NCBI GenBank assembly: GCA_026390595.1
Contig: JAPLFQ010000033.1
Location: forward strand, 26,574-90,573
Direction of reading: 5' to 3'
Source: Ignavibacteriales bacterium
GTDB taxonomy: Bacteria > Bacteroidota > Ignavibacteria > UBA10030
Length of the DNA: 64,000 nt
The notes under the pieces are model-generated. The model was given only the letters and a program-made list of their open reading frames with translations. It was not told where the DNA came from and did not search any database. Position 1 is the stretch's first letter, and each line of letters starts with the position of its first letter. The position numbers and the translations under genes were made by a program. Shown piece by piece: positions 5,584 to 57,998 of this stretch.

Positions 5584-5590
5584 GCATGGT

Positions 5591-7212: not shown

Positions 7213-7213
7213 A

Positions 7214-24796: not shown

Positions 24797-24890
24797 TTGA
24801 TGTTTCTTTGCTGAGAGTTCGTCGTCAACACCCGGGATATGCATAACGTCTTGAGATCATCTGATTGGGTTCTGCAACAACTGCACAATC

Positions 24891-26207
24891 CTATCGAGGT
24901 CTGTTCTTCCTTTTCCAGAACAAGAAGACCGGAACACCCGCGGCGAGGAAAGCAAGACCTGCTAACGACTCTGCTGGCTTTTCGAAAAGTGTATAGATCA
25001 CAAAGAGTGTTGAAATCGTCACGAACAATATGGGCGTTAGTGGGTATCCAAGCGTCCTATACGGGCGCTCCGCCTGCGGTAGACGCCGTCGGAAAATAAA
25101 AATGCTGAATGCTGCGAGCGCAAAGAATATCCAATCTGTAAACACAACATAGGAAATCAGGCTTTCGAATGTTCCCCAAAACAGGATGAGCACGATCGCC
25201 CAGGCAGATTGAAGGGCAATGGCGAGCATCGGTGTCCGAAATCTTGGATGGACCTCGGCGACTTTCTTGAAGAAGAGGCCATCATTCGCCATCGCATAGT
25301 AGATCCGCGGAGCCGTCAGTGTGTAGATACCGGTTGTCCCGAATGTGGATATGAAGATCGTGATTGCAATCAGACTGCCCCCTACAGGTCCGAGAACAAG
25401 GCTGATGGCATCCGCTGCAACGCGAGGAGAAGCTGCCATCTGAGCTGGAGTCATGAGAAACATGTATGCAACATTCGTCGAGATATAGATGATCGTAACC
25501 GCGAGTGCCCCGATGATGAGCGAACGAGGGACACTCCTTTTTGGGTCTTTTGCTTCCGCTGCCGTGAAGGTCGCGTGCTGCCAGCCGCCAAAAGACCAGA
25601 GAACGCTCACGAAGGCGAGCGTCAGAGCGCTCGACAGACCGTTCGGAAGGTGTCCGAGCGGTATTGAGAAATCCGTGGTCGTGCTCGATCCCCAGCCAAT
25701 ACCAACTGCGATGAGAGCAACTATCCCAAGGATCTTCAGGACCGTAAACAAATCGGAGAAGATGCCTCCGGCTTTAACGCCCAGAATGTTTATGATGGTA
25801 ACCAGGATGATTCCCAGTATTCCCACCAGGGTTGTGTGCTCGCCGGCAAACGGCACGAAGAAGCCGAGGTAGGTGGAAAACGCCAGAGCCAAAGCAGCAA
25901 GTGCACCGGTGTTGACGACAAGGAAATATGCCCATCCGTACAGAAAACCGACCAGCCCCCCGTACGCTTTAGTAAGAAACACATACACACCGCCCGCCCG
26001 GGGCATCATGGCACCGAGTTCTGCATATGTCAGGGCACCGCACATGGTTGTGAGACCGCCGAGAACCCAGATTCCGAGAATCCAGACAGGAGAGGGGAGC
26101 GCTTTTGCAATGAGTGCTGGTGTAAGGAATATTCCGGAACCGATGGATGACCCTATAGCGATCATGGTCATGTCAAAGAGGGAAAGCTCACGCCGGAGAT
26201 CTGCCAT
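24891..26207 (-). CDS. Amino acid permease (APC superfamily)
   Basis: 12-TM protein with the APC family N-terminal signature (FDMTMIAIGSSIGSGIFLTPA). Confidence 0.85.
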   Translation of the reverse strand: MADLRRELSLFDMTMIAIGSSIGSGIFLTPALIAKALPSPVWILGIWVLGGLTTMCGALTYAELGAMMPRAGGVYVFLTKAYGGLVGFLYGWAYFLVVNTGALAALALAFSTYLGFFVPFAGEHTTLVGILGIILVTIINILGVKAGGIFSDLFTVLKILGIVALIAVGIGWGSSTTTDFSIPLGHLPNGLSSALTLAFVSVLWSFGGWQHATFTAAEAKDPKRSVPRSLIIGALAVTIIYISTNVAYMFLMTPAQMAASPRVAADAISLVLGPVGGSLIAITIFISTFGTTGIYTLTAPRIYYAMANDGLFFKKVAEVHPRFRTPMLAIALQSAWAIVLILFWGTFESLISYVVFTDWIFFALAAFSIFIFRRRLPQAERPYRTLGYPLTPILFVTISTLFVIYTLFEKPAESLAGLAFLAAGVPVFLFWKRKNRPR

Positions 26208-26217
26208 AAGGGAAGTC

Positions 26218-26254
26218 GATTGTCGCTGGTGATATTATTGTTGGGGGATTGTCG
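26218..26254. repeat. Two copies of the GATTGTCG octamer in the 5' region of the APC permease gene
   Basis: GATTGTCG at 26218-26225 and 26247-26254. The same octamer occurs three times upstream of proS (38292-38327). Confidence 0.4.
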
Positions 26255-26258
26255 TGAA

Positions 26259-28511
26259 CTATATCTGTATTTGGATAGCCTTGCCAATGACACTTTCGGC
26301 ATGATGTTCGCCATCGAGCCAAACCGTGAATCGTGATCTCCGGACGTCCACCCGGAGATATCTGCCTCGCACCAGGACATTGTCAACAGTAACGGAGTCG
26401 AGGTTGAATGGGAATGGATCGATGAGAACAGAAAACTCTTCCGGTCGTATTCCACACACATACTTCAGGATGAGGTCGTTTACCCAGGAATGCTGGTAGT
26501 CATCAATGCCGCGGTAGATACTGGGCGTTCCTGATTCGGGATTGTAGTGCTCGAAGCAGTTCGGGCGCCGGGGATCTCCGTCGAAGAACATCAATCTAAC
26601 GTACTTCGTCATGAACTCAGCCGCCTTCTTGCGCAGTCCTTTGTCTGAGAATGCGATCGCCGCGGCGGCGAGGACTTCTGCTATGTGGCTGTTCGTCATC
26701 GGCCAGACCCGCCCGTTCCACGGACAGTTCATGCGCTTGCCTTTCCAGGTGGGAGAGGCTGAAAAGAACTCATCATCCGCACTGGAGGAGGGAACGGGGT
26801 AGGGCGTCCAGAATTCTTTCTTGTTTAGAAGATGACGCTTGAGTCCGGGGAGATGACTCCTGTCTACGATGTCGGTGAAGTATGGATAGAAACACGTGGC
26901 GGCCTTTACCAGGGTCCGATTTCCAGAGGCAGGATCGACATCAAAAAACATCTCCTGCTCGGAGTCCCACATTCTCTCGAGTACAGCCGTCTTGATCTTC
27001 CCGGCTTCGATTCTCCATAGCTCGCTTTCGTCGGTTCTGCCAAGTGTCTCGGCAACGGCCGACAACGCCCGTTTGAGCTCGTACAGATAGACGGTAACAT
27101 CGACTCCCTTGAGTCTGAATGCTTCGCCCCAATGTTCCTCGTCGGCCCGTGGATTGACCGCCGTATACCTGTGCATGTATTCCTGGCCCGTCTCATAATG
27201 ATTCTCGATGTCGTACAGTCCGCTGATCTCTTCGTCGCGTTCTTTGTCGAAATAGCCGGCGTACTTCTTCAGCCCTTCGTACACCTGCCCCAGGTAATCC
27301 GCGGAAGGATGCATGGCGTGAAGCTGAAGCAAGGCATTTCCCCAGTTCGCGTGGTAGAACATTTCCTGCCGGTAGTGGTTCATATCGATGTAGCCACGGA
27401 ACCCGCCATCATCGCGTTGGTTGTCGATAAATGTCAGAAGGCTTCCGCGGGCGAGCTCAGGATCGTGCATCCAGCGGTTTTCCAGGATATGGCATTGAGC
27501 ACTGTACGAAATGGGAGCGCGAAAATAGCCGATCCCCTCACAGACAAAAGGACGTTTGTAGTTTCCATCATTGCCGTACTGGGTGTTAAGTTTGAGTCCG
27601 TACCATCGATACCAGTAGTAGCGAGTCAAGAACTCGTCCGAGGAATTAAAATGGGGGACAGAGGCGAAGTGATCGTTCCAGCTGATTCTGCTCAGTTCGG
27701 CCGGATTGTTCTGGCGGAGAGCCGCACGTACGTTGCCATAGGTCTCATCGGACGAGGGGGAAGCCGCGAAGGCTATTGGTATTTCAGCTTCCATTCCTGG
27801 TTTGAGCGTGATCTCTGTGTGAAGTCCTGCATAGATGAGCCCCTCCTGTTCCGATCCCGTAATCTCGCTGGTGTTCTGCAATCTCCCTTCGTGAAACGTC
27901 TCGAACCAGGGAGTCAGAGCCCAATGAGGCTGGACAGCAGTCCGCTCGCTGAGACTGACGGAATAGGATTGGTTCGATGCACGCATTGCAAGCGCGCAGG
28001 CAATTTCAACGTGCGGTGCCACCGAGGGACGTACGAATTTGGTGAACGCAATTCCGTCACGACCCCGCTCCACGTCGGTTATCCAAGCCGATGATTTGGA
28101 TGGGACGATTTCCTGAATGGTCCATGCCACGAGGTGAAGGCGGAGTGTATTGCGTGAGCGGTTTTTCAATGTGACGACACTGAGCGCTACATCGTTGGGA
28201 AGAAGGGATTTTGTTTCCAGCACCTGAACATGCCGCGCATCTCCTTTGAGCGTACAATCGTATTCCTGGGTCATGAAAGCCGGATTCCAGGTTCGTCTGC
28301 AAAATGTAAGTGGGGACTCCCGTCCCGCGTCATCGAGAATCGCCCAAGTGAACAGAGGTTTGATCTCATAGTTATAGTAGTGCGCTTCATCCCAGAATCC
28401 GGGGAAATCAAGAAAGAGAGGGAACGTGGGAGCCCATAGCAGGCGATTTCCGCCGCCGAGGTACCATTTGTCGTTTCGCTCAAGATAACGGAGCAGGTCG
28501 ATTTTCTTCAT
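26259..28511 (-). CDS. Six-hairpin (alpha/alpha)6 glycoside hydrolase/phosphorylase-like protein, 750 aa (GH63/GH37/GDE-like clan)
   Basis: N-terminal beta-sandwich plus C-terminal helical barrel. Motifs FYHANWGNALL and NCPWNGRVWP (NGxxWP type). No signal peptide. Family not resolvable by eye. Confidence 0.55.
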   Translation of the reverse strand: MKKIDLLRYLERNDKWYLGGGNRLLWAPTFPLFLDFPGFWDEAHYYNYEIKPLFTWAILDDAGRESPLTFCRRTWNPAFMTQEYDCTLKGDARHVQVLETKSLLPNDVALSVVTLKNRSRNTLRLHLVAWTIQEIVPSKSSAWITDVERGRDGIAFTKFVRPSVAPHVEIACALAMRASNQSYSVSLSERTAVQPHWALTPWFETFHEGRLQNTSEITGSEQEGLIYAGLHTEITLKPGMEAEIPIAFAASPSSDETYGNVRAALRQNNPAELSRISWNDHFASVPHFNSSDEFLTRYYWYRWYGLKLNTQYGNDGNYKRPFVCEGIGYFRAPISYSAQCHILENRWMHDPELARGSLLTFIDNQRDDGGFRGYIDMNHYRQEMFYHANWGNALLQLHAMHPSADYLGQVYEGLKKYAGYFDKERDEEISGLYDIENHYETGQEYMHRYTAVNPRADEEHWGEAFRLKGVDVTVYLYELKRALSAVAETLGRTDESELWRIEAGKIKTAVLERMWDSEQEMFFDVDPASGNRTLVKAATCFYPYFTDIVDRSHLPGLKRHLLNKKEFWTPYPVPSSSADDEFFSASPTWKGKRMNCPWNGRVWPMTNSHIAEVLAAAAIAFSDKGLRKKAAEFMTKYVRLMFFDGDPRRPNCFEHYNPESGTPSIYRGIDDYQHSWVNDLILKYVCGIRPEEFSVLIDPFPFNLDSVTVDNVLVRGRYLRVDVRRSRFTVWLDGEHHAESVIGKAIQIQI

Positions 28512-28542
28512 GTCATTGTTCCGTCCTTAGAAAAGGAAGACT

Positions 28543-29367
28543 TCATCCCTTCAAACCGGTCATGGTGATCCCTTTGACGAAGTACTTCTGTGCCGCAATG
28601 AACACCACAACGACGGGGAGCATAACAACTACGGCTGCGGCCATCTGATGTGGCCAGTCGGTTGTGTACAGGTTACTGAAATTAGCGATTCCGACTTCGA
28701 CGGTCCTCATGTCGGTCCGGTTCGTGACGATCAGCGGCCACAGAAAGTCTTTCCAGCTCCCCATGAAGGCGAAAATTGCAAGCGTCGCAAGAGCGGGCTT
28801 AGACAGAGGAAGGATCACCCGGAGGAAGATCGTGAGTTCCGAGGCGCCATCGACGCGCGCTGCATCTTCGATATCCCTTGGAATTGTCAGAAAGAACTGG
28901 CGCAGAAGAAATATCCCCCACACGCTTGAGACTGTGGGAGTGAACAGCGCCCAGTAGGTGTTCATCCAACCGAACGTGTTGATGAGGAGAAATGCCGGAA
29001 TGATTGTGACCATCGCCGGTATCATCATGGTGCTCAGGTAGAGGGCGAAGATTCTGTCTCGCCATCGGAAACGGAGCCGCGCAAAAGCGTATGCCGCCAT
29101 CGAGCAAAACGTGAGCTGCCCGATCACGGAAGCAGCAGCAACGATGAAAGAGTTCAGGAAGAATCGCCCGAACGGTTGGAGCGTCATTGCCTCTCCGTAA
29201 TTCGACCACTTCAACACGGAGGGGACAAACCGGGGCGGGAATTGATACACTTCCAATTCGCTCATGAGCGAAGTACTGAGCATCCACAGAAAAGGGAGGA
29301 GCATGGAGAGCGCGAGCAGAACCAGGCCGCCATAAATCAAAAGTCGGTTCAAACGCTTCATCGGCAC
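28543..29367 (-). CDS. Carbohydrate ABC transporter permease (MalG/UgpE-like)
   Basis: 6 TM helices and the EAA-like loop (IEDAARVDGASELTIFLRVILPLSKPAL). Confidence 0.85.
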   Translation of the reverse strand: MPMKRLNRLLIYGGLVLLALSMLLPFLWMLSTSLMSELEVYQFPPRFVPSVLKWSNYGEAMTLQPFGRFFLNSFIVAAASVIGQLTFCSMAAYAFARLRFRWRDRIFALYLSTMMIPAMVTIIPAFLLINTFGWMNTYWALFTPTVSSVWGIFLLRQFFLTIPRDIEDAARVDGASELTIFLRVILPLSKPALATLAIFAFMGSWKDFLWPLIVTNRTDMRTVEVGIANFSNLYTTDWPHQMAAAVVVMLPVVVVFIAAQKYFVKGITMTGLKG

Positions 29368-29377
29368 AGTAACCTGA

Positions 29378-30280
29378 CTATTTCACTGGATTGATTTGTT
29401 CCCACACGTGTGGATCTTCATGGCCCAAACGCCAAACGGAGATGCCTCTGAAATGGTATTTCTTCACCAGGGCGAGTTTGGCGGCCATCGACCGTGCGTC
29501 TTCCAGGTAAATGTATTCGTTGAGGAACTCATTCGGGTAGACCGCATACGATACCTTCTCGCGATCATCCCACTTCCACGTTGCATTGTTACGCTCAGCG
29601 AGTGCCATTGCTTCGGCATAGTCGAGGCTTTTTCCCCAGGCGTGGGCTGCATTGTTCTGATATTCGGGCTGCCAGACTCTGGAGTAGAAGGGGATTCCGA
29701 GAGAGATCTTCCCGGGCGGTACCCCTTTCATCACGAATTGAATGATTGCTTCCATCCATGGTACACCCGCCACCGGCCCCGGGGTCGTCCGATGCGTGTG
29801 CTGTTCATAGGTCATAAGCGAAATGAAGTCGCCAATCTCCGCCAGGGCCTTGTAGTCGAATACGCCTCGCCAGTACTCATAGATCCACTTGTGGAATTCA
29901 GTCGGACCGATGTCCTCAGATGACCTCGGAACGACGGCGACACTGATTGCGTAGCCGTTCGAGTGGAGGGCTGCTGCCGCCTGACGGTAGAAGTCTGTAA
30001 ACGCGTCCTTGTCCGAAATATGGATGTTCTCAAAATCGAACTGAAGGCCGTAGTATTTGTTCTCTCGGCATACGCGAACCATGTTGGAGACACCCCGAGC
30101 CCGGGCAGCGGAATCATGGAGAAGCGCATGAAACGAAGGCTGATCGAAGCCAGGGTTCACCACCAGGGGCATCACCTTGACATTGTTTTTTGAGGAGAGC
30201 TCGAGGATCCTCCGATCAACGGAGCCCCACATGTTTCCGTGCTCATCCAACACCGCAATGATACGACTCCTATATCGCAT
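29378..30280 (-). CDS. GH18-like glycosyl hydrolase family protein (YaaH/YdhD-type catalytic domain), cytoplasmic
   Basis: YGLQFDFENI (variant GH18 D-x-E catalytic motif) and ISLGIPFYSRVW (GH18 LGxPxYGR-like). No signal peptide. Confidence 0.45.
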   Translation of the reverse strand: MRYRSRIIAVLDEHGNMWGSVDRRILELSSKNNVKVMPLVVNPGFDQPSFHALLHDSAARARGVSNMVRVCRENKYYGLQFDFENIHISDKDAFTDFYRQAAAALHSNGYAISVAVVPRSSEDIGPTEFHKWIYEYWRGVFDYKALAEIGDFISLMTYEQHTHRTTPGPVAGVPWMEAIIQFVMKGVPPGKISLGIPFYSRVWQPEYQNNAAHAWGKSLDYAEAMALAERNNATWKWDDREKVSYAVYPNEFLNEYIYLEDARSMAAKLALVKKYHFRGISVWRLGHEDPHVWEQINPVK

Positions 30281-30309
30281 GACGGTTTCCTCCGGTTGTG
30301 CGGATCTTT

Positions 30310-31419
30310 TTAGTCGCCGAAGCAGATGCCGAGGTCTCTTGCTGTAAGCATCGTGTCGCAGTCAAGCGGGACTTTCTTCATGCGCCTCGTCGCCTGCTCG
30401 AGCGGAACATAGCGAACTGTCGGCGGATCGAGCGCAACCATGACCCCGGACCTTCCCTCCTCGAGAGCGCGCACGGCAGCAGCCCCAAATCTGAGCGAAA
30501 TAAGGCGGTCAAATGTAGTAGGGGACCCCCCTCGCAGGAGGTGTCCGAGCACCACGCACCGCGATTCGCGTCCCGTGAGTTCCTGAAGTTCAGCGGAAAC
30601 CCGCTCACCGGCTCCTCCAAGGCGTTCCGCCCGGCCAAGCTCTTTGGAAACAACTGAAACGGTTCCACCCTTTGGCTTTGCGCCCTCGGCAACAACAACA
30701 ATAGCGAAGTTGCGTCCGCGTGAATATCGGTCTTGAATCTTGTCAGCGACCTTCTTGAGGTCGTAAGGGATTTCCGGTATCAAGATTGCATCCGCAGTGC
30801 CCGAAACGCCGCTGTTCAGAGCGATCCATCCGGCGTAGCGTCCCATTACTTCGACAACCATGACTCGTTGATGTGCCTCAGCCGTCGAGTGCAGACGGTC
30901 AAGGCACATCGTTGCAAATCCAACTGCGGTGTCGAACCCGAATGTGATGACAGTCTTTTCGAGATCATTGTCGATTGTTTTCGGTACTCCGACAACTCGC
31001 AGCCCTTTCTGTGCGAGCGCGTTGGAAATCGTGAGAGATCCGTCTCCGCCGATAGAGATGAGGGCGTCAATTTTTTCTTTCTTGAATATTTTCACCAGCT
31101 CGCCCGTCCGATCTTTCTCATACATTTTCCCATCCCTGCCTTTGACGGGATACTTCATCGGATTTCCTTTGTTTGTCGTTCCAAGGATTGTGCCGCCAAG
31201 GTGCGTGATGCCCCGGACCCGGTCTCTTGTCAGTGGGATGAGCCCTCCATCGGGATATTGTTCAGGGAGTAGAAGTCCGTTGTAGCCGTCTCTGATGCCG
31301 ATGCATTCCCAGCCACGGTCGATAGCAGTGATCACCGCTGCACGAATGACTGCATTGAGCCCGGGAGCGTCTCCGCCTCCGGTATTGATTGCAATGCGTT
31401 TGATAGGCTTGAGTGCCAT
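30310..31419 (-). CDS. pfkA: 6-phosphofructokinase (ATP-type motif GGDGS)
   Basis: RIAINTGGGDAPGLNAVIRA ... ISIGGDGSL ... PKTIDNDL. PFK family signatures. Confidence 0.9.
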   Translation of the reverse strand: MALKPIKRIAINTGGGDAPGLNAVIRAAVITAIDRGWECIGIRDGYNGLLLPEQYPDGGLIPLTRDRVRGITHLGGTILGTTNKGNPMKYPVKGRDGKMYEKDRTGELVKIFKKEKIDALISIGGDGSLTISNALAQKGLRVVGVPKTIDNDLEKTVITFGFDTAVGFATMCLDRLHSTAEAHQRVMVVEVMGRYAGWIALNSGVSGTADAILIPEIPYDLKKVADKIQDRYSRGRNFAIVVVAEGAKPKGGTVSVVSKELGRAERLGGAGERVSAELQELTGRESRCVVLGHLLRGGSPTTFDRLISLRFGAAAVRALEEGRSGVMVALDPPTVRYVPLEQATRRMKKVPLDCDTMLTARDLGICFGD

Positions 31420-31440
31420 ACGTATCTCCTTTGAAAGTAA

Positions 31441-33837
31441 TCAACTGTATTCAGCTTCACGTCCCAAAATCTTGAATTGAATCCATGTCGCTATCATGAT
31501 GATGAGAAAGAGCACCCAGGACATTGCAGAGGCATAACCCATCCTCAGCTCTTCCCAAGCCGATTGATAGATGTGGTACACGATGACGTCTGTGCTTCCC
31601 ACCGGGCCGCCGCCAGTCATGACATAAATCGAAGTAAAGACCTGAAACGATGCGATGATTGAGGTGACAAGGATAAAGAACGTCGTGGGCTTGAGCAGTG
31701 GAAGCGTTATCCGCCAGAAACGCTGCCAGCTGTTTGCGCCGTCGATCCGGGCTGCGTCATGGAATTCTTCCGGTATGCCCTGAAGTCCGGCAAGGAAAAC
31801 GACCATCTGGTATCCAAGGCTGAGCCACACGGAAAATATGATCACCGAAACCATGGCCGTGCTGGACGAATTCAGCCACTGCACAGGACCGAGTCCCAAA
31901 AATCCGAGTACGAAGTTGGCCACGCCGAACGTGGGATGATAGATCCACATCCAGACGAGGGCAATTGCGACGAATGAAGTGACGCTTGGAAGGAAATAGA
32001 GCGCCCGGAGAAACGCGACTCCTTTGAGCCGCTTGTTCATCATCAGCGCCACGACGAGAGAAATGGCCATTGCGATGGGTACATTCAATGTATATAGTGC
32101 CGTGTTCTTCAGCGCATTCCAGAATGTCGTGTCCGACGCGAGTTCCCTGAAGTTCTCCAGGCCGACGAATGGTTTGTCCGGCACTACGACATCCCACCGG
32201 TGCAGGCTAAGGTATGCGGCAAATGCAATCGGCGTGAAGATAAAAACGGTCAGGTGGAGCAGGGAAGGGGCAAGGAAGCCAAGCGCTGTGCGTGTCGAGG
32301 CGCGCGTGTGACCGCGGGATTTCAGATACATCGCTCCGCATGCACTGAAAACTATGAATGTCACAACGATAAGGAACCGAAGTATGTCGGAGTGCTCTCG
32401 AATAGGCTTGAATTCAAACGCCTGGTGCTTTCGTATGTTCGCGAGTTGGGCATCGATTGTTGCTGCGTAGCGGGTCATTGTTTCATGAATCGGCTTGCCG
32501 TTCACCATAACTTCATCGACAGCATCCTGCAATGTCCATTCAACCTCGCTGAAGCGTTCGATAATAGAGCCCCACGGCTGACGGCACAATGGTATCTCGT
32601 TCGCAAAGGGGCGTTCGAGTCCAAGCAAGTCAGCCGCGACAACCTCCTCTGCCACATTGCGTACGGAAGGGATCTCAAGTTGTTTTGAGGCCCGAATGCG
32701 GTTTGCTTTCTCGCCGGCCATGAACGCTGCGAGAATAGCCGCTTCGCGGGGGTGTTTCGAACTGACAGGAACGCACCAGCCCGATTCGTACATGACGTTC
32801 ACTGAGTGTCCTCCGGGATAGTTCGGCATCGGAACCACTCCCACGCGGAGAGTCCCGTGCTCAATCTGCCGGAGTATCCGTGGCAGCCGCCAGTGTCCGT
32901 CAACCATCATTGCGATCTTCCCGTTCATGAAGAGCTGAACGTTCATTCCAGTTTTTTCTGATTGTATCCAGCTCCCGGTGTTCGGAGCTACCTTGTGAAC
33001 AGTACGCAGATCAATCAGATAGGAAAGGGCCGATTCGGTCGCAGGGGAGTTCAGATAGCCCGAGGCGGTCGTTCCAGACGGGTCGATGACGTCGCCCCCG
33101 GTCCTCCAAACCCACGGAATCCAGAAATAGAAATAGTTTGTGAAGGAAGTTCCATACTGATCTGGTGTCCCATCACCATCGAAATCAACGGTCGTCTTCC
33201 TGGCGAGGGCGAGATACTCATTCCACGTCCACGAACTCGCAGGATAGGGGAGATTGGCACCGTCAAAGATGTCTTTGTTGAAATAGACCATCAGTGGAGT
33301 GAAGCCCTTCGGAAATGCGAAGAGGGCTTCTCCTTTTCGCGCGATGGCGAGAACATTGGGATACCATCGGGCTGTGTCGATTCGAAGCTGTTGCACAAAC
33401 GGGTTCAGATCGAGAAGGATCTTTTTGTTCGTGAAGGTTGGAATAAGCTTGGAATCCAGCAGAAACACGTCAGAGGGATCATCTGCAGCGAGCGCAGTCA
33501 AAATCTTTTCTTCGTACTGTCGCCCCGGGTTGGGTTCGTAGAGAACGTCGATGGCGGGATAGAGCCGCTTGAATTCTGCGAGAGCCAGCTGATCAAGCGG
33601 AACCTCGTCCAGATCAGCCCAATCTGTGAGTCTCAGCGTAATCCGAGTCTGGGCATTGAGAGGGTGGAAGCACGCGACGGCGAGAATGAAGAAGCAGAAG
33701 AAGGTGAGTAATGTTTCAGCCAGTCGCTGTTTTGTCCCGCGGGAGAACACAGATATTTTCTTTGGCTGATGGTGAGTGTGAAGCAGACAATTGCTGTTAC
33801 AACGCAGTCCGCGACCCGGGCACTGCAGCCCGCGCAC
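31441..33837 (-). CDS. Fused ABC importer component: N-terminal extracytoplasmic sugar-binding protein (MalE/UgpB-like) joined to a C-terminal MalF/UgpA-like permease (798 aa)
   Basis: N-terminal ~450 aa is a family-1 SBP. A linking TM helix follows, then a 6-TM permease with the EAA loop (EFHDAARIDGANSWQRFWRITLPLLKPT). One continuous ORF. N-terminal signal-anchor. Start uncertain. Confidence 0.7.
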   Translation of the reverse strand: MRGLQCPGRGLRCNSNCLLHTHHQPKKISVFSRGTKQRLAETLLTFFCFFILAVACFHPLNAQTRITLRLTDWADLDEVPLDQLALAEFKRLYPAIDVLYEPNPGRQYEEKILTALAADDPSDVFLLDSKLIPTFTNKKILLDLNPFVQQLRIDTARWYPNVLAIARKGEALFAFPKGFTPLMVYFNKDIFDGANLPYPASSWTWNEYLALARKTTVDFDGDGTPDQYGTSFTNYFYFWIPWVWRTGGDVIDPSGTTASGYLNSPATESALSYLIDLRTVHKVAPNTGSWIQSEKTGMNVQLFMNGKIAMMVDGHWRLPRILRQIEHGTLRVGVVPMPNYPGGHSVNVMYESGWCVPVSSKHPREAAILAAFMAGEKANRIRASKQLEIPSVRNVAEEVVAADLLGLERPFANEIPLCRQPWGSIIERFSEVEWTLQDAVDEVMVNGKPIHETMTRYAATIDAQLANIRKHQAFEFKPIREHSDILRFLIVVTFIVFSACGAMYLKSRGHTRASTRTALGFLAPSLLHLTVFIFTPIAFAAYLSLHRWDVVVPDKPFVGLENFRELASDTTFWNALKNTALYTLNVPIAMAISLVVALMMNKRLKGVAFLRALYFLPSVTSFVAIALVWMWIYHPTFGVANFVLGFLGLGPVQWLNSSSTAMVSVIIFSVWLSLGYQMVVFLAGLQGIPEEFHDAARIDGANSWQRFWRITLPLLKPTTFFILVTSIIASFQVFTSIYVMTGGGPVGSTDVIVYHIYQSAWEELRMGYASAMSWVLFLIIMIATWIQFKILGREAEYS

Positions 33838-33879
33838 TAAGTCTTTCGCTCAAAAGATGACCGTGTTCCCTCAATCACC

Positions 33880-35073
33880 TCATCGGGCAGAGAGAGCCTT
33901 GAATACTTCCCTCGTCGCATCTGCCGCCGTACGGATTTCGTCCAGTGAATTATAGAAGTGGGGAGCGAATCGGAGCTTCCCTCCGCGCAGGGAAATGTAG
34001 ATTTTTCTTCGTGTCAGTTCTTCGAAGGCTGCGGTGGGGTCGACTCCCGACGGCGGCGCGATCGTCATGATGCCTGAACGCTCATGAAGCGCTACAGGGG
34101 AATAGAGAGACACTCCATCCATACGGTGGAATTCTTCGAGAAGAGCTCCGGTCAAAGCCAGCACATGGGACTCGATGACCTGAGGTCCGACTTCGAGAAG
34201 CGTGCTCAGAGCCGCGTGCATTCCCCACATGCCGGGGATGTTGACGGTGCCTCCCTCGTAGCGGTTCGCCGTCGGTGTGAGGGCCTGCTCGAAATTAAAA
34301 AAGTCCCATGGGTTTTCGACTGAAAGCCAACCAAGATATTTTTGGTGTATCCTTGCCTGGAGTTCTTCGGTGACATAGAGAAAGCCGATTCCCTGCGGTC
34401 CCATTTGCCACTTTGCGGCCCCGGCTGCCATACCGTCGATTTTCATCGCCTGGACATCCACGGTAACCCCTCCAACGGCCTGCATGGCATCTACGACGAG
34501 CAGAATACCCCGGGCATGGCACACCTCGCCGAGTACGGCCAGATCCGCACGGTATCCGGATAGAAATTGAACGGCGCTGATGGCCAAAATACGCGTGCGA
34601 GGTCGCAGTGCTGCGTACACCGCCTCCGGCCTGATGGTTCCGTCAGGGCAATGGATGATATCAATTTCGACTCCCTGGCTCTTCAGGTGATAGTACGGAT
34701 AGACATTGGACGGAAATTCGAGGTCATTGAGAAGGATCCGGTCTCCCGGTTTCCAATCGAGGCCCGACGCGATAACATTGAGCGCATCAGACGTGTTGCC
34801 GGCGAAGGCGATACGGTCGATCGATTCTGCGTTGATCATTCGTTGAACACACTTCTTCGTTTCCTCGATCTGCTTGACGTCCTCCCAGTAGGTCTCGATC
34901 TTGCCGGAAGAACGATCCTGCAAATGTCCAACTTGAGCACGCAATACCCGTGTCGAGAGCGGACTGACGGCAGCGTGATTCAGATAGATCACTCCCTGCT
35001 CAGTGTGCGGAAATAACTGTCGGAATTGCTGAAGCGGTTCGAATGGAATGAGACGAGCTTGGGGAGAAGTCAC
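33880..35073 (-). CDS. Class V aminotransferase-fold PLP-dependent enzyme (cysteine desulfurase / SufS-CsdA-like family)
   Basis: 397 aa. Typical fold-type I class V layout with a candidate PLP lysine (AAKWQMGPQG). First gene of the minus-strand carbohydrate operon. Confidence 0.75.
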   Translation of the reverse strand: MTSPQARLIPFEPLQQFRQLFPHTEQGVIYLNHAAVSPLSTRVLRAQVGHLQDRSSGKIETYWEDVKQIEETKKCVQRMINAESIDRIAFAGNTSDALNVIASGLDWKPGDRILLNDLEFPSNVYPYYHLKSQGVEIDIIHCPDGTIRPEAVYAALRPRTRILAISAVQFLSGYRADLAVLGEVCHARGILLVVDAMQAVGGVTVDVQAMKIDGMAAGAAKWQMGPQGIGFLYVTEELQARIHQKYLGWLSVENPWDFFNFEQALTPTANRYEGGTVNIPGMWGMHAALSTLLEVGPQVIESHVLALTGALLEEFHRMDGVSLYSPVALHERSGIMTIAPPSGVDPTAAFEELTRRKIYISLRGGKLRFAPHFYNSLDEIRTAADATREVFKALSAR

Positions 35074-35464
35074 GAGTGGCCGGTGATGTTAGGAGACGAT
35101 TCGTTCTGGGCAAGTGTACTCAAAGAGACACGGAAAATCAAGGATTTCGGGGTTAAATGCCGGGTTGTTTTTGGGAGTCAGGATGGCTACCATAGGTTCG
35201 ACGCGCTTTCCCTTCCGGCTGTTCACCCACCCGTGGGTGGTGGATAGAAAGATGGCGTCGTGCGAAAATTCACTACGTCAACAGACTGGTATTCGTCCAA
35301 TCTCAGGCCGGCAATCGATCCAATTTGCACGCTGCTGCAATGCAGTTGGATAGGCAACATCTTCACTCACTCCTGCGGGCAGGGAATAGGTGATTGCTTC
35401 GACTTGAATCTGGAGACAATTTGCATAGATTTGCTTTCTGTAACCCACCGTGGCCGTTGCCCAC

Positions 35465-36382
35465 ATGACTACAAAGGTCAAACGCATGAAAGTGAAACCA
35501 ATTCTGCTGCTCGTTGTTCTCCTGAGCTGCTATTGTTACTCTGCGACTGTTTCCATTTCCGATTCCTCCTCACCCGTTGTCTTGATTCGCTGTGACGATC
35601 TCGGCATGTGTCACACGGTCAATCTGGCAGCAAAGCAGGTGCTGGAGACCGGCATGCCAGTCTCCTTTTCAGTTATGTTCGCCTGTCCGTGGTATCAGGA
35701 GGCGATTGACTTGCTTAGACGGTATCCGCATGCATCTGTCGGCATTCACCTCACACTCAATGCGGAGTGGAAGAACTACCGTTGGGGACCTGTATCAGGG
35801 AAGAGCGCTGTACCAAGCCTTGTTGACAGCCTTGGTTTCTTTTTCCCCTCGCGTGCAGCATTTTTTGCTCACCATCCACAATTGGGGGAAATTGAAACCG
35901 AATTGAGGGCACAGATCGAACGTGCGATGCATTGCGGGATACAAATAGACTACGTCGACTACCACATGGGAACGGCGGTTGATCGACCCGAATTACGGGC
36001 CCTGGTGGAATCTCTCGCGAAGCACTACGGTCTTGGCGTTTCCAGGTACTTCGGTGAAACGGATGTAGACGGAGTGTACAGCGCTCCGATTGCGAGCAAG
36101 GTCGATACACTCCTTGCCCGGACACGTTCACTGCCTCACACATCCATCAATCTGATGGTTTTTCATATCGGTCTCCAGACCCCGGAGATGGATGCCCTCG
36201 AGGATTTGAATTCATTCGGGCTTCGGGAAATGAGCAAACATCGGGAGGCAGAACTCAAATCCGTAACCTCAGCATCGTTCCGACAATTGGTCGAGTCACA
36301 GCACGTTCAGCTGACAACCTACCGGGACGTCATCAAAGCAACAGGATTGACCGGTATGAAACGCCCGGTACAGAAGGACTGA
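35465..36382 (+). CDS. YdjC/ChbG-family carbohydrate deacetylase-like protein with N-terminal signal peptide
   Basis: VLIRCDDLGMCHTVN (YdjC-family DDxG metal-binding N-motif). Hydrophobic N-terminus MTTKVKRMKVKPILLLVVLLSCYCYSA. Start chosen among three in-frame candidates (35450 GTG, 35465, 35486). Confidence 0.5.
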   Translation: MTTKVKRMKVKPILLLVVLLSCYCYSATVSISDSSSPVVLIRCDDLGMCHTVNLAAKQVLETGMPVSFSVMFACPWYQEAIDLLRRYPHASVGIHLTLNAEWKNYRWGPVSGKSAVPSLVDSLGFFFPSRAAFFAHHPQLGEIETELRAQIERAMHCGIQIDYVDYHMGTAVDRPELRALVESLAKHYGLGVSRYFGETDVDGVYSAPIASKVDTLLARTRSLPHTSINLMVFHIGLQTPEMDALEDLNSFGLREMSKHREAELKSVTSASFRQLVESQHVQLTTYRDVIKATGLTGMKRPVQKD

Positions 36383-36387
36383 TCTCG

Positions 36388-37668
36388 TTGAAGACTTTCG
36401 CAGTCATCCTGGTCGCCCTTACGCTGAATTCCTGCGCGATCTCGCGCTACCTCGGCTATTTCGAGCTCGCTGAACGATTGTATGTGGCCGGTGATTACTC
36501 TCGCGCCATTGATATGTACATCGAGGCGATCAGGCAAAAGGACAAAAGGGCAGAATCCTTTTTCGGATTGGCGCTGTCATACTATCAACGAGGAGACCTC
36601 GAAGAGGCGATGCTAGCGTTCGAGAAAGTGATAGAACTTGAACCAAAACGCGAGAGCGCATATGAAAGGCTCGCAGCCGTTCATCTGGATCTGGGAAACC
36701 CTGACATCGCGATCGCGTTGTGTCGGAAGGCTATCGGAATGGATCCGGAATTCGTGGAGGCGTACAATACGCTTGCACATGGATTGTTCGAAACCGGAAG
36801 GACGGATAGCGCGGAGACCACATTCAAGTATTGTATCACACTTGCGTGGGGGATGTCAGCGCGCAACCGCGGGTCCGGGTATCGGACGCTGTATCTGGAT
36901 GAGCAAGCGGAATCCTATAACGGGCTCGGTGAGATTGAACTCGCCAGAGGACTCTATGTCCGGGCCTTGGAACAGTTTGGTTCAGCCATCAACCTCGTTT
37001 CCGATTGGGATACCCCATGGATCAACAAGGGGAGGACGTACGAAGCGATGGGGAACGCCGCTGCCGCACAGATATCCTATCTCCGCGCGATCGACTTGTC
37101 GGCGTCAAACGCAAGCACATACAAGCGGCTGGCCGAATTGTATCGGCGAATCGGTAAAGAGGCGGATGCGATCGACATCTACCGCTCGGCGCTTCGCGTT
37201 GATCGGACGGATACAGAATTGTACTACGCCCTGGCGGACATCTATGAGAAGCGTCACGACTATTCGCAAGCCACAGCTGCATTGGAGAACGTCGTACGGT
37301 ATGCTCCCGATGATCCTGCGGGGTATTTCCGCAGCGGACGCCTCTGCAACGCTCAATCCGAGTACGATCGGGCAATCGTCTACTTCAGGCAGGCACTTGA
37401 CCTCGATTCGCAGCATGCCGAGTCCTTGAACGGAATGGGTGAAGCCTATCAGGAAAAAGGTGAGGTCAGCGAAGCACAACGATTGTATGAAAGAGCAATT
37501 GCTTGTGATTCCTCGTTCACGCTTCCCTTGCGAAACCTTGGTTCGCTCTTCCTTTCTCTTGGGAAAGAGGCGGAAGGTATCCGATGCTACACACGCGCCT
37601 CAGCGTTGGGTGACATTGATGCAATGATGTTCCTCCGTGCCTGGGACAATGCCAGGAAGAAAGAGTGA
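36388..37668 (+). CDS. Tetratricopeptide-repeat lipoprotein
   Basis: Lipoprotein signal MKTFAVILVALTLNSC followed by multiple TPR units across 426 aa. Confidence 0.7.
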   Translation: MKTFAVILVALTLNSCAISRYLGYFELAERLYVAGDYSRAIDMYIEAIRQKDKRAESFFGLALSYYQRGDLEEAMLAFEKVIELEPKRESAYERLAAVHLDLGNPDIAIALCRKAIGMDPEFVEAYNTLAHGLFETGRTDSAETTFKYCITLAWGMSARNRGSGYRTLYLDEQAESYNGLGEIELARGLYVRALEQFGSAINLVSDWDTPWINKGRTYEAMGNAAAAQISYLRAIDLSASNASTYKRLAELYRRIGKEADAIDIYRSALRVDRTDTELYYALADIYEKRHDYSQATAALENVVRYAPDDPAGYFRSGRLCNAQSEYDRAIVYFRQALDLDSQHAESLNGMGEAYQEKGEVSEAQRLYERAIACDSSFTLPLRNLGSLFLSLGKEAEGIRCYTRASALGDIDAMMFLRAWDNARKKE

Positions 37669-37994
37669 AGTACGACCCTCTTCGAATCGTTCTCGTTGCA
37701 TTTCTTCCGCTTTTCATTCGGAGTGGTCTCTATTTCCTGGCCTGCAAGGTTCGTTCTATTCAGATATCGTTGATGAGTTGCATCGTGATTGCAGGTTCTG
37801 GTGTACTCCTCACCATCGTCCCTATCCCACTGCCATACGCGTTTTCGCGTCTGCTGGCGATTGGTCTGGCAATGTTTCTTATGACGCGATACACCGAAGC
37901 GGAACTTTTTCCAGACGTGGTGCTCATCCCGCTAGCCGTTGAGGTACTTTCGGGCGTACTCACGGAATTGTCGCTCTTGCCTTTCGCTTCCTAG
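37665..37994 (+). CDS. Small hypothetical membrane protein (109 aa)
   Basis: Three predicted TM helices. ATGA overlap with the TPR gene stop suggests translational coupling. Confidence 0.4.
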   Translation: MKYDPLRIVLVAFLPLFIRSGLYFLACKVRSIQISLMSCIVIAGSGVLLTIVPIPLPYAFSRLLAIGLAMFLMTRYTEAELFPDVVLIPLAVEVLSGVLTELSLLPFAS

Positions 37995-38212: not shown

Positions 38213-38286
38213 GCCCCCGTAGCTCAGCTGGATAGAGCATCGGTTTCCTAAACCGGTTGTCGGACGTTCGAGTCGTCTCGGGGGCA
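38213..38286 (+). tRNA. tRNA-Arg (anticodon CCT)
   Basis: Folded by hand. Acceptor GCCCCCG/CGGGGGC, D-arm GCTC-AGCTGGATA-GAGC, anticodon arm TCGGT-TTCCTAA-ACCGG, T-arm GGACG-TTCGAGT-CGTCT, discriminator A. No encoded CCA. Confidence 0.85.
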
Positions 38287-57978: not shown

Positions 57979-57998
57979 TTGACCCGGTCACTATCTCA

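What the first reader, a model, noticed from the sequence alone, without database searches (positions are those of the whole stretch)
26259..36382. Atypical carbohydrate/aminosugar locus: aminotransferase-V, SBP-permease fusion, PFK, GH18-like, permease, six-hairpin GH, divergent ChbG-like deacetylase
Six minus-strand genes are tightly spaced (gaps 10-42 nt), consistent with one operon. Its intracellular enzymes are a GH18-like domain, a 750-aa (alpha/alpha)6 hydrolase/phosphorylase-like protein, a 6-phosphofructokinase and a class V PLP enzyme. A YdjC/ChbG-family deacetylase-like gene is transcribed divergently from the shared 376-bp promoter region. PFK embedded in a glycan-uptake operon suggests the substrate is funnelled to fructose-6-P (for example via GlcNAc-6P and GlcN-6P), though no NagA/NagB is present here. 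The combination and the fused transporter are not a textbook PUL or chb operon. No ABC ATPase is encoded in the locus, which implies a shared MsiK-type ATPase elsewhere.
Basis: partly seen in the sequence, partly recalled or inferred. Interest (0 to 1): 0.6.

Follow-up and report, generated by a model that had tools for sequence, protein, structure and literature searches.

The report
Mosaic sugar-uptake operon in Ignavibacteria
This is a real, conserved nine-gene operon in an uncultured Ignavibacteriales bacterium, but it is a patchwork: a sugar importer and uncharacterised sugar-cleaving enzymes are interleaved with an older block holding the glycolytic enzyme PFK and an amino-acid transporter, so it is not a dedicated chitin or amino-sugar pathway.

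Summary
The genes and domain calls are real, from an Ignavibacteriales MAG. The co-directional array is nine genes (18561-35073), not six. It also includes an APC permease, a secreted 969-aa lectin/HExxH protein and a 1125-aa GDE/GH116-like hydrolase.

Gene order is conserved in relatives. PFK lies between the two permease genes in 11 loci.

Comparative genomics splits the locus into modules:
- A glycan module: SBP-permease fusion, second permease, (alpha/alpha)6 hydrolases. It is contiguous in other phyla, without PFK or the class-V enzyme.
- A class-V PLP enzyme plus amino-acid permease pair that also occurs alone.
- PFK. One relative keeps class-V/PFK/permease at the same housekeeping site with no glycan genes.

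PFK is canonical and diverges like ProRS and DnaE, so it is probably the housekeeping enzyme.

GH18 (YaaH/YdhD type) and YdjC are recent additions to this subclade, and both are exported. The window's GH18 looks intracellular only because 144 nt, encoding its signal peptide, are missing.

The 750-aa protein belongs to an uncharacterised family nearest GH142, GH121 and GH63. The substrate is unresolved. An amino-sugar-to-F6P pathway is not supported.

The parts
33880..35073 (-). AT5: class-V-fold PLP enzyme of the desulfurase-like branch, without the catalytic cysteine. First gene of the array.
   Evidence: Pfam Aminotran_5 188 bits. All NCBIfam desulfurase models score far below their cut-offs. 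Its only Cys residues are at 75, 142 and 185. Candidate PLP residues by eye are K221 and D195. It pairs with an AA_permease even where glycan genes are absent.
31441..33837 (-). CUT1-type ABC importer subunit. A solute-binding domain is fused through one extra TM helix to a UgpA/MalF-like six-TM permease. The likely start is 33750 (769 aa).
   Evidence: Pfam SBP_bac_1 plus BPD_transp_1. Hydropathy shows a signal anchor at 39-57, an extra TM at 485-503, then the permease TMs. The fusion is present in 31 loci across several phyla. The closest solved SBP is AbnE, the arabino-oligosaccharide binder 6rjy, at 7.6e-27.
30310..31419 (-). ATP-dependent 6-phosphofructokinase (PfkA type), lying between the two permease genes.
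   Evidence: Pfam PFK 329 bits. NCBIfam PRK03202 scores 354.6 against a cut-off of 253. The GGDGS, TIDND, MGR and R..GH..RGG motifs align with B. stearothermophilus PFK. The same position recurs in 11 loci. It is also present at this site without glycan genes.
29378..30280 (-). GH18 of the YaaH/YdhD/SleL type. This is an internally deleted copy: 48 aa, including the signal peptide, are missing at the 30249/30250 junction.
   Evidence: Pfam 120.5 bits. Best PDB matches are 4s3k YaaH (2.5e-30) and 3cz8 YdhD. The deletion is shown against L001 and against 8 relatives. The D-x-E of the catalytic motif (FDFE) is retained.
28543..29367 (-). Second ABC permease (UgpE/MalG-like).
   Evidence: Pfam BPD_transp_1 80 bits. 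NCBIfam UgpE 163 bits, below its cut-off. It is the most conserved gene of the module, at 64-91% identity in the FCB-group and allied loci and 45-53% in Thermotogae-type loci.
26259..28511 (-). GH63L: a cytoplasmic 750-aa two-domain (beta-sandwich plus (alpha/alpha)6) glycosidase of an uncharacterised family.
   Evidence: Pfam MGH1-like_GH 157 bits. No PDB hit with the single sequence. The family profile hits GH142 BT_1020 at 1.5e-15, GH121 HypBA2 at 2e-10 and GH63 YgjK at 2e-8. The AF2 model has pLDDT 73.5, and Foldseek puts GH121, GH63, GH94 and GH116 on top. In hhalign against YgjK, ETGQE (440-444) faces ESGRD, which holds the GH63 general acid. No TM segment or signal peptide.
24891..26207 (-). 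APC-superfamily amino-acid permease.
   Evidence: Pfam AA_permease_2 175 bits. Best NCBIfam matches are the L-type amino-acid transporter subfamily and FrlA, all below cut-off. It lies within 10 kb of GH63L, on the same strand, in 22 loci. It is also paired with AT5 alone.
21935..24844 (-). Secreted 969-aa multidomain protein. It has a lectin-like N-terminal domain, an NHL propeller, an Fn3-like domain, an HExxH domain, TSP3-like Asp-rich repeats and a C-terminal beta-sandwich.
   Evidence: No Pfam hit at 1e-3; weak 3keto-disac_hyd, Pur_ac_phosph_N and TSP3 matches. Signal peptide. Only 41 homologues found. In the AF2 model the N-terminal domain resembles CBM66 (TMt about 0.8), but the HExxH region has pLDDT about 30. 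The motif W-[LI]-x-x-H-E-[FY]-x-H-[QN]-x-D is present in all 14 locus homologues, down to 26-30% identity.
18561..21938 (-). Cytoplasmic 1125-aa (alpha/alpha)6 hydrolase, GDE_C/GH116-like, overlapping the previous gene by 4 nt. Last gene of the array.
   Evidence: Pfam MGH1-like_GH, GDE_C, DUF608 and an N-terminal DUF4960. Best PDB match is 7vma, an archaeal-type Gde, at 7e-9. NCBI names it 'GH116 family glycosyl hydrolase'. No signal peptide.
35074..35449 (.). 376-bp divergent intergenic region.
   Evidence: No Rfam family, no inverted repeat, and no promoter-like site in it.
35450..36382 (+). YdjC-family putative deacetylase with an N-terminal lipoprotein-type signal.
   Evidence: Pfam YdjC 153 bits. 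The chitin disaccharide deacetylase equivalog scores 55.6 against a cut-off of 227. The hydrophobic N-terminus has LLSC. It co-varies with GH18 across relatives.
36388..37668 (+). TPR lipoprotein, 5 nt after YdjC.
   Evidence: Pfam TPR families. Lipobox LNSC. A paralogue lies inside the array, between the AA_permease and the 969-aa gene, in several relatives.
37665..37994 (+). 109-aa hydrophobic protein overlapping the TPR gene by 4 nt.
   Evidence: ORF and sequence. Conserved after the TPR gene in L010, L038 and L089.

Best explanation
The region is one long co-transcribed array of nine genes plus a divergent three-gene unit. It was assembled from separable modules, not built as a single-substrate pathway.

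Module A, the glycan module:
- Exported enzymes work on an extracellular glycan or glycoconjugate.
  - The 969-aa lectin/HExxH protein is one of them.
  - This subclade adds a YaaH-type GH18 and a YdjC lipoprotein. They replace the secreted 850-aa GDE-like hydrolase of sister lineages.
- The released oligosaccharide is captured by a binding domain tethered to the first permease.
- It is imported by the two-permease ABC system, using an ATPase encoded elsewhere.
- In the cytoplasm it is cleaved to monosaccharides by the 750-aa GH63/GH142-like enzyme and the 1125-aa GDE/GH116-like enzyme.

Module B: an amino-acid permease with a cysteine-less class-V PLP enzyme. This pair exists on its own in other bacteria.

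Module C: a canonical ATP-PFK, most likely the cell's glycolytic PFK. It was already at this chromosomal site and is now co-expressed with sugar uptake.

Status of each step:
- Shown: gene content, fusion topology, conservation, modularity and the GH18 deletion.
- Inferred: co-transcription, the direction of flow and hydrolase activity.
- Unknown: the substrate. It is probably an alpha-gluco/manno- or furanoside-type oligosaccharide, not chitobiose.
For: Array structure:
- Nine co-directional genes with gaps of 129 nt or less and one 4-nt overlap.
- The SBPperm-PFK-perm2 order recurs in 11 loci. GH63L identity across them runs from 54% to 100%.

Modularity:
- SBPperm-perm2-GH(850)-GH63L is contiguous, without PFK or AT5, in KSB1 and Chlorobi-like genomes. 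Calditrichota, Fidelibacterota and Thermotogae carry partial or reordered versions, likewise without PFK or AT5.
- AT5-PFK-AA_permease stands alone at the syntenic housekeeping site in L088.
- The AT5-AA_permease pair stands alone in L086, L090 and L091.
- PFK divergence matches ProRS and DnaE.
- PFK has all the ATP and F6P motifs and passes the NCBIfam ATP-PFK subfamily cut-off.

Localisation:
- Signal peptides or lipoboxes on the 969-aa protein, YdjC, TPR and full-length GH18.
- None on GH63L, GH1125, PFK or AT5.

Transporter:
- The fusion topology is coherent, with an extra TM between the SBP and the permease core.
- It is conserved in 31 loci.

Front-end swap:
- GH18 loci lack the secreted 850-aa hydrolase, and the reverse also holds.
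- YdjC is present in all five loci where GH18 and the upstream region are both visible.

Hydrolase family:
- GH63L is a six-hairpin enzyme whose ETGQE loop aligns with the acid-bearing loop of GH63 (PMC7263609 for the GH63/GH121/GH142 equivalences).
Against: - No transcript data, and the promoter and terminator scans were uninformative.
- AT5 and AA_permease stay next to GH63L through rearrangements (AT5 upstream in some loci, immediately downstream in L037, L040 and L044, and fused in P0106). That hints at a functional tie the modular reading plays down.
- 'Housekeeping PFK' was not proven, because the rest of the genome could not be searched for a second PFK.
- No activity is known for any of the three large proteins.
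- The window's GH18 is probably inactive, so the front end may be broken in this strain.
Confidence: 0.55

Rival explanations
1. First reader's model. This is a dedicated chito-oligosaccharide, N-glycan or amino-sugar operon. GlcNAc-containing oligosaccharides are imported, deacetylated by the ChbG-like enzyme, cleaved by GH18 and the six-hairpin enzyme, and funnelled through GlcN-6P to fructose-6-P and PFK.
For: GH18 and YdjC domains are present. They co-vary across relatives. PFK is embedded in the array. GH38 alpha-mannosidase occurs in a few related loci, as N-glycan systems would need.
Against: - GH18 and YdjC are exported, so they act before uptake.
- They are confined to the closest subclade, while the rest of the locus is much older.
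- The GH18 is YaaH/YdhD-type, not an Endo-type ENGase or a processive chitinase.
- YdjC fails the chitin-disaccharide-deacetylase equivalog: 55.6 against 227.
- No NagA, NagB, NagK or PTS in 64 kb.
- PFK sits at this site without any glycan gene in L088.
Confidence: 0.1
2. Integrated glyco-amino-acid or glycopeptide pathway. The 969-aa lectin/HExxH protein cuts a glycoprotein. Glycosylated amino acids or peptides enter through the APC permease and oligosaccharides through the ABC system. GH63L removes the sugar, and the cysteine-less class-V PLP enzyme degrades the amino-acid moiety.
For: - GH63L, AT5 and AA_permease stay adjacent through rearrangements, and are fused once, in P0106 (1110 aa).
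- The HExxH motif is invariant in the 969-aa family, which also has a lectin-like N-terminal domain.
- The nearest solved relatives of GH63L (GH142, GH121) act on beta-L-arabinofuranosides, and GH121 acts on Hyp-linked ones (PMC7263609).
- The best SBP match is an arabino-oligosaccharide binder.
- The second-best NCBIfam match of the AA_permease is the fructoselysine transporter FrlA.
Against: - AT5-AA_permease pairs exist with no glycosidase nearby.
- There is only one fusion, with none among the top 120 AT5 homologues.
- The HExxH domain model is unreliable.
- All family-level matches are remote, so specificity cannot be transferred.
- Outside Ignavibacteria the GH63L module lacks AT5 and AA_permease.
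Confidence: 0.15
3. Turnover of an endogenous glycoside or storage compound. GH63L and the GDE-like enzyme act on a cytosolic compatible solute or a glycogen-derived oligosaccharide, and PFK sits beside them to feed glycolysis. The ABC system merely salvages the same compound.
For: - L009 and L019 keep AT5-PFK-GH63L with no ABC genes.
- The Pfam match is to the mannosylglycerate-hydrolase-like domain.
- The GDE_C-like enzyme and GlgB are neighbours.
- The family occurs in Rhodothermales, Salinibacter and Petrotogaceae. These groups are known for glycoside solutes (my own knowledge).
Against: - About half of the loci carry the dedicated importer.
- Exported enzymes are part of the conserved array.
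- The A3 family profile listed none of the mannosyl- or glucosylglycerate hydrolase entries in the PDB at E <= 1, while it did hit GH142, GH121 and YgjK.
- GlgB is on the opposite strand, behind another gene.
Confidence: 0.1

Closest known systems
Bifidobacterium longum hypBA cluster: extracellular GH121 HypBA2, ABC importer, intracellular GH127 HypBA1 (PMC7263609)
   Same: The logic is the same: an exported enzyme releases a small oligosaccharide from a glycoconjugate, an SBP-dependent ABC importer takes it up, and an intracellular glycosidase finishes the job. GH63L is a remote sequence relative of GH121 and GH142.
   Different: Here the six-hairpin enzyme is cytoplasmic, not surface-anchored. 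There is no GH127 or GH43. The SBP is fused to the permease. PFK and an amino-acid module are interleaved. The substrate is unknown.
E. coli chb operon (ChbBCA PTS, ChbF, ChbG, ChbR)
   Same: A YdjC-family protein lies next to sugar-uptake genes.
   Different: There is no PTS, no GH4 phospho-beta-glucosidase and no ChbR. The YdjC protein is a predicted lipoprotein and fails the ChbG equivalog model.
CUT1 ABC sugar importers with a shared ATPase (MalEFG/MsiK type)
   Same: Two BPD_transp_1 permeases of the UgpA/MalF and UgpE/MalG types, a cluster-B-type SBP fold and no ATPase gene in the operon.
   Different: The SBP is covalently fused to the first permease through an extra TM helix, and this is conserved in 31 loci. 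The review I read describes CUT1 systems as having a separate binding protein (PMC11212667). To my knowledge, fused binding domains are known mainly from amino-acid and osmolyte importers such as GlnPQ and OpuA.
GH63 alpha-glycosidases (YgjK, processing glucosidase I, mannosyl- and glucosylglycerate hydrolases)
   Same: An N-terminal beta-sandwich plus an (alpha/alpha)6 barrel. The Pfam MGH1-like_GH domain matches. An E-[ST]-G-x-[DE] loop aligns with the general-acid loop of YgjK.
   Different: Asp is replaced by Glu at the acid position. The general-base region did not align with YgjK. The NCBIfam alpha-glucosidase equivalog scores 29.5 against a cut-off of 625. GH142 and GH121 score better than GH63 in the profile search.
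Bacteroidota polysaccharide utilisation loci (SusC/SusD)
   Same: Exported glycan-active proteins are clustered with uptake genes and cytoplasmic or periplasmic hydrolases, in an FCB-group bacterium.
   Different: There is no SusC/SusD pair in the array, and uptake across the inner membrane is by an ABC system.

Membership tests
chb-type chitobiose system / ChbG deacetylase | Protein matches the chitin disaccharide deacetylase (ChbG) equivalog model | tested here: not met
   NF002559 scores 55.6 bits against a cut-off of 227. Only the broad Pfam YdjC domain is met, at 153 bits.
chb-type chitobiose system / ChbG deacetylase | Cytoplasmic enzyme acting on the imported (phospho)disaccharide | tested here: not met
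   N-terminal hydrophobic segment with lipobox-like LLSC. Gene callers keep this N-terminus.
chb-type chitobiose system / ChbG deacetylase | PTS ChbBCA transporter and GH4 ChbF in the operon | tested here: not met
   No PTS or GH4 domain in any ORF of 200 aa or more that was scanned in the window.
GH18 (YaaH/YdhD/SleL subgroup) | Glyco_hydro_18 domain above the Pfam gathering score, with the D-x-E catalytic pair | tested here: met
   120.5 bits against 29.6. FDFE is retained and aligns with the FDFE of YaaH.
GH18 (YaaH/YdhD/SleL subgroup) | Complete (beta/alpha)8 barrel and export signal, as in relatives | tested here: not met
   The window copy lacks 48 aa, namely the signal peptide and the conserved MFYxIDNExCFxSF...IDIVGPQ segment. 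Both are present in L001 and in 8 relatives.
GH63 | N-terminal beta-sandwich plus (alpha/alpha)6 barrel | tested here: met
   AF2 model (pLDDT 73.5). Foldseek hits YgjK at E about 5e-16, but GH121, GH94 and GH116 score similarly.
GH63 | General acid Asp in the A'-region loop (YgjK D501) and general base Glu (E727) | tested here: inconclusive
   In hhalign ETGQE faces ESGRD, and I take E444 to correspond to D501, although hhalign opens a gap there. The base region was not aligned. E654, in CFEHYNP, aligns with a Glu of BT_1020.
GH63 | Sequence-level membership (curated model or closest solved relatives are GH63) | tested here: not met
   The NF007525 alpha-glucosidase model scores 29.5 against 625. 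In the profile-versus-PDB search GH142 reaches 1.5e-15 and GH121 2e-10, both ahead of YgjK at 2e-8. No MgH or GgH entry was listed. CAZy/dbCAN models were not available.
GH142 / GH121 (beta-L-arabinofuranoside hydrolases) | Sequence similarity over the catalytic barrel, with conserved active-site residues | tested here: inconclusive
   Two aligned stretches with BT_1020 (276-356 and 474-725) share the P-F-E-C...YYRWW motif. The catalytic residues of GH142 are not established (PMC7263609). Equivalents of GH121 Glu383, Asp515 and Glu713 were not mapped.
ATP-dependent 6-phosphofructokinase (PfkA family) | Curated family score, ATP-type GGDG motif, catalytic TIDND and F6P-binding Arg/His residues | tested here: met
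   NF002872 scores 354.6 against 253. GGDGS, TIDND, MGR and R-x-x-VLGH-x-x-RGG all align with 1mto. Substrate preference was not assayed.
Cysteine desulfurase (SufS/CsdA/IscS) | Catalytic cysteine on the C-terminal loop, and a curated model score | tested here: not met
   All NCBIfam desulfurase models score below their cut-offs; the best is 137 against 475. Cys occurs only at 75, 142 and 185. PDB alignments end at residue 338, before the Cys loop.
CUT1 ABC sugar importer | SBP, two different permeases and a MalK-type ATPase | tested here: met
   The SBP and both permeases are present. There is no ATPase in the locus, as is common for this family, and the SBP is fused, which is atypical.
Bacteroidota PUL | Adjacent susC/susD-like pair | tested here: not met
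   No TonB-dependent receptor or SusD domain in the array or its flanks in the window.

The most novel reading that the evidence does not exclude
GH63L, the cysteine-less class-V PLP enzyme and the APC permease form a previously undescribed route for catabolism of glycosylated amino acids or glycopeptides. The 969-aa lectin/HExxH protein acts as a glycoprotein-directed metallopeptidase, and the tethered-SBP ABC system imports the glycan part. On this reading GH63L would found a new glycoside hydrolase family with a glyco-amino-acid specificity.
Probability: 0.13. Interest if true: 0.7.

Novelty: new variant of a known kind. Interest (0 to 1): 0.38.

Why it matters
**What is uncharacterised here**
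- A six-hairpin glycosidase family. The pattern scan of one genome per species found relatives at 457 places, in Ignavibacteria, Chlorobi-like bacteria, KSB1, Calditrichota, Fidelibacterota, Rhodothermales, Thermotogae and others. Identity to the query is 42-75% among the 80 loci kept, which is unusually conserved for a protein without a known substrate.
- A GDE/GH116-like partner enzyme.
- A clade-restricted secreted HExxH protein.
- A sugar ABC importer whose binding protein is fused to the permease.

Working out the substrate would fill a gap in how these abundant sediment and soil heterotrophs feed.

**Cautionary value**
- A glycolytic gene inside a glycan operon is not evidence for the pathway's end product if comparative genomics shows the gene was there first.
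- An 'intracellular' call can be the by-product of a strain-specific deletion.

Tried and rejected
- **Promoter and terminator scans**. Counts equalled the shuffled controls, and Bacteroidota-type promoters are not modelled, so the scans were not used.
- **Rfam** on the whole window. It found only three tRNAs and no riboswitch in the 376-bp region. No inverted repeat was found there either.
- **Single-sequence PDB search of GH63L**. Nothing was found; a family profile was needed.
- **AF2 of the 969-aa protein**. The HExxH region has pLDDT about 30, so the fold search informed only on the lectin-like and propeller domains. I did not treat the CBM66 resemblance as evidence for fructan, because the fold is generic.
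- **Fructan or furanoside theme.** It rested on CBM66-like and DUF4960 domains, DUF2961/GH172 in distant loci, and AbnE-like and GH142/121-like matches. I kept it only as a sub-hypothesis because every link is remote.
- **E. coli ygjI.** The APC transporter next to ygjK is not a specific relative of the window's permease (pairwise E 0.002).
- **AT5-GH63L fusion as a Rosetta stone.** There is only one instance and none among the top 120 AT5 hits, so the evidence is weak.
- **Literature on Ignavibacterium and Melioribacter**. It gave no PFK copy number.
- **Motif conservation.** The ETGQE and CPWNGRVW motifs in the 80 loci are partly circular, because those motifs were the search patterns. The EHY motif was not a search pattern, and my pattern for it matched 68 of 83 sequences.

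Full report
**Origin and observation**

The window comes from an Ignavibacteriales MAG. The 750-aa protein is 100% identical to an NCBI protein on a 202-kb contig. Neighbouring products carry consecutive accessions MCX6135650-659.

Pfam and NCBIfam confirm every domain call:
- Aminotran_5
- SBP_bac_1 plus BPD_transp_1 in one ORF
- PFK
- Glyco_hydro_18
- BPD_transp_1
- MGH1-like_GH with a weak Trehalase match
- YdjC

The gaps and the 376-bp divergent region are as described. GC content is flat across the window. The rest of the window is housekeeping: rpsA, trp genes, ProRS, DnaE, AspRS, a release factor, LolCDE-like genes, Lnt and NusA. The only ABC ATPase is LolD-like. There is no NagA, NagB or sugar kinase.

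**Extent of the array**

The array does not end at 26259. Three further minus-strand genes follow, with gaps of 51, 46 and -4 nt:
- An APC-family amino-acid permease (24891-26207).
- A 969-aa protein with no Pfam domain at 1e-3 (21935-24844).
- A 1125-aa protein with MGH1-like, GDE_C and GH116 matches (18561-21938).

On the other side, YdjC is followed 5 nt later by a TPR protein, and then by an overlapping 109-aa hydrophobic ORF.

**Localisation**

Hydropathy and N-terminal sequences give these assignments:
- The 969-aa protein has a signal peptide.
- YdjC (LLSC), the TPR protein (LNSC) and the neighbouring 828-aa DUF5117/DUF4953 protein (ISGC) have lipoprotein-type signals.
- The 750-aa, 1125-aa, PFK and class-V proteins have no signal or TM segment.

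The transporter fusion has a signal anchor, the binding domain, one extra TM helix followed by a basic loop, and then the permease TMs. That is the topology needed to place the binding domain outside the membrane.

**The GH18 deletion**

- A Logan contig (L001) is 100% identical to window 16259-38286, except that it has 144 more nt at window 30249/30250.
- The extra 48 codons encode the signal peptide and a segment that is highly conserved in all eight relatives.
- The MAG in NCBI carries the short 300-aa form.
- The 'intracellular GH18' is therefore a strain- or assembly-specific truncation of a normally exported enzyme, and the copy is probably inactive.
- The enzyme belongs to the YaaH/YdhD/SleL group of GH18. 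It is not an Endo-type or classical chitinase.

**Conservation and modularity**

Eighty genome loci encoding relatives of the 750-aa protein were fetched. They were analysed by tblastn and by ORF clustering.

- *Across phyla.* In KSB1 and Chlorobi-like loci the core is fused SBP-permease, second permease, an 850-930-aa GDE/GH116-like hydrolase and the 750-aa protein. Calditrichota, Fidelibacterota, Rhodothermales and Thermotogae carry partial or rearranged versions. There is no PFK or class-V enzyme in any of them.
- *The 850-aa hydrolase* has a signal peptide. Its best PDB match is an archaeal-type Gde.
- *Within Ignavibacteria* the usual order is class-V, SBP-permease, PFK, permease, (850-aa hydrolase), 750-aa protein, amino-acid permease, (TPR), 969-aa protein, 1125-aa protein.
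- *PFK position.* PFK lies between the two permease genes in 11 loci.
- *GH18 and YdjC* occur only in the window's closest subclade. There the 850-aa secreted hydrolase is missing. YdjC is present in all five loci where GH18 and the upstream region are both visible. This looks like a swap of the extracellular front end.

**The backbone**

- Contig L088 has the same flanks: AspRS, DnaE and ProRS on one side, and a DUF5117/DUF4953 protein, GlgB and a cytidylyltransferase on the other.
- Between the flanks it carries only class-V, PFK and the amino-acid permease.
- Its PFK is 79% identical to the window's. ProRS is 78% and DnaE 80%.
- L089 has the full glycan insertion and is about equally related (PFK 84%, ProRS 82%, DnaE 83%).
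- The pair of class-V enzyme and amino-acid permease occurs alone in three more contigs.
- L009 and L019 have class-V, PFK and the 750-aa protein with no ABC genes.

PFK's presence at this site therefore does not depend on the glycan genes. It evolves like a housekeeping gene. It has every canonical ATP and F6P motif and passes the NCBIfam ATP-PFK subfamily cut-off. The array is a mosaic in which a glycan module is interleaved with an older class-V/PFK/permease block.

**The large proteins**

*The 750-aa protein.*
- The single sequence has no PDB relative.
- A family profile hits the GH142 domain of BT_1020 (1.5e-15), GH121 HypBA2 (2e-10), GH63 YgjK (2e-8) and GH37 trehalases (about 1e-3).
- The AF2 model (pLDDT 73.5) shows a beta-sandwich plus an (alpha/alpha)6 barrel. 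Foldseek ranks GH121, GH63, GH94 and GH116 on top.
- These families are known structural relatives (PMC7263609).
- In hhalign against YgjK, the invariant ETGQE loop faces ESGRD, which holds the GH63 general acid D501. The base region did not align.
- I conclude that it belongs to an uncharacterised family of this superfamily. No substrate can be transferred to it.

*The 1125-aa protein* is GDE_C/GH116-like.

*The 969-aa protein.*
- Its family has 41 detectable homologues.
- It has a CBM66-like lectin fold, an NHL propeller, an Fn3-like domain, Asp-rich TSP3-like repeats and a C-terminal sandwich.
- The motif W-[LI]-x-x-H-E-[FY]-x-H-[QN]-x-D is present in all 14 locus homologues, down to 26-30% identity.
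- This suggests a zinc hydrolase, but the model of that region is unreliable.

*The class-V enzyme* is in the desulfurase-like branch. It lacks the catalytic cysteine loop.

*The SBP domain* is closest to the arabino-oligosaccharide binder AbnE (7.6e-27). Lmo0181 and trehalose/maltose binders follow.

**Mechanism**

The best-supported reading has three stages:
1. Exported enzymes release an oligosaccharide.
2. The tethered-SBP ABC system imports it, using an ATPase encoded elsewhere.
3. Two cytoplasmic six-hairpin hydrolases cleave it.

PFK is the resident glycolytic enzyme, co-expressed with uptake. The amino-acid permease and PLP enzyme form a separate module.

The persistent adjacency of the 750-aa protein, the class-V enzyme and the permease leaves room for an integrated glyco-amino-acid pathway. 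They stay together through rearrangements and are fused once, in P0106. I give that pathway about 0.13-0.15. The amino-sugar-to-F6P model gets about 0.1.

**Novelty**

This is a variant of ABC-based glycan utilisation loci. Its unusual features are:
- a conserved SBP-permease fusion in a CUT1-type sugar importer (31 loci; CUT1 systems are described with a separate binding protein in PMC11212667);
- three uncharacterised large proteins;
- interleaving with PFK.

I rate the interest as moderate.

Noticed in passing
window 30249/30250 (L001 8038-8181): A clean in-frame 144-nt deletion in GH18, relative to an otherwise 100% identical 22-kb Logan contig. There is no flanking direct repeat. The deposited MAG has the short form. 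It could be a population variant or an assembly artefact.
   Followed up: yes
L005 479-3811 (protein P0106): A single 1110-aa ORF fuses a homologue of the 750-aa glycosidase to the class-V PLP enzyme, and the amino-acid permease follows it. This was the only such fusion seen.
   Followed up: partly
L092 (E. coli K-12 NC_000913.3 3226234-3231239): The GH63 gene ygjK sits two genes after ygjI, a putative APC-superfamily transporter. That echoes the glycosidase-APC permease adjacency seen here, but the two permeases are not specifically related (pairwise E 0.002).
   Followed up: partly
L071, L075, L077, L079, L080, L084, L085 (Thermotogae and Clostridia loci): These loci have a separate 380-470-aa SBP. 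They also have a 756-817-aa permease protein whose N-terminal 450 aa or so do not match the SBP domain of the fusion. It may be a divergent second binding domain or a different extracytoplasmic domain.
   Followed up: no
window 16000-18486 (+) and 13593-15809 (+): A DUF5117/DUF4953 Met-zincin lipoprotein lies convergent to the array, with GlgB next to it. Both are conserved neighbours in many relatives, including L088, which lacks the glycan genes.
   Followed up: partly
L004, L025, L030, L033, L035, L065 (Chlorobi-like and Ignavibacteria loci): Downstream of the 750-aa homologue there is a recurring set on the same strand: DUF4382, a protein of about 610 aa, a TonB-dependent-receptor-like protein of about 970 aa, and a protein of about 810 aa. 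PorV follows in L004. A Reg_prop-like gene lies on the opposite strand.
   Followed up: no
L016, L037, L040, L047; L071, L077, L079, L083, L085: Distant loci carry a GH38 alpha-mannosidase (about 1070 aa), galactokinase-like GHMP kinases, LacI regulators and DUF2961 (GH172-type) proteins next to the 750-aa homologue. The module therefore sits in varied sugar contexts.
   Followed up: partly
window 38213-38286: A tRNA gene lies between the YdjC/TPR unit and ProRS. The Logan contig L001 ends exactly there.
   Followed up: no
window 4573-9062 and 57945-59513: Tryptophan biosynthesis genes are split. The trpD-, trpC-, trpF- and trpB-like genes are at the left end, with a CBS/CorC gene inserted among them. 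The trpE-like gene lies about 50 kb away.
   Followed up: no
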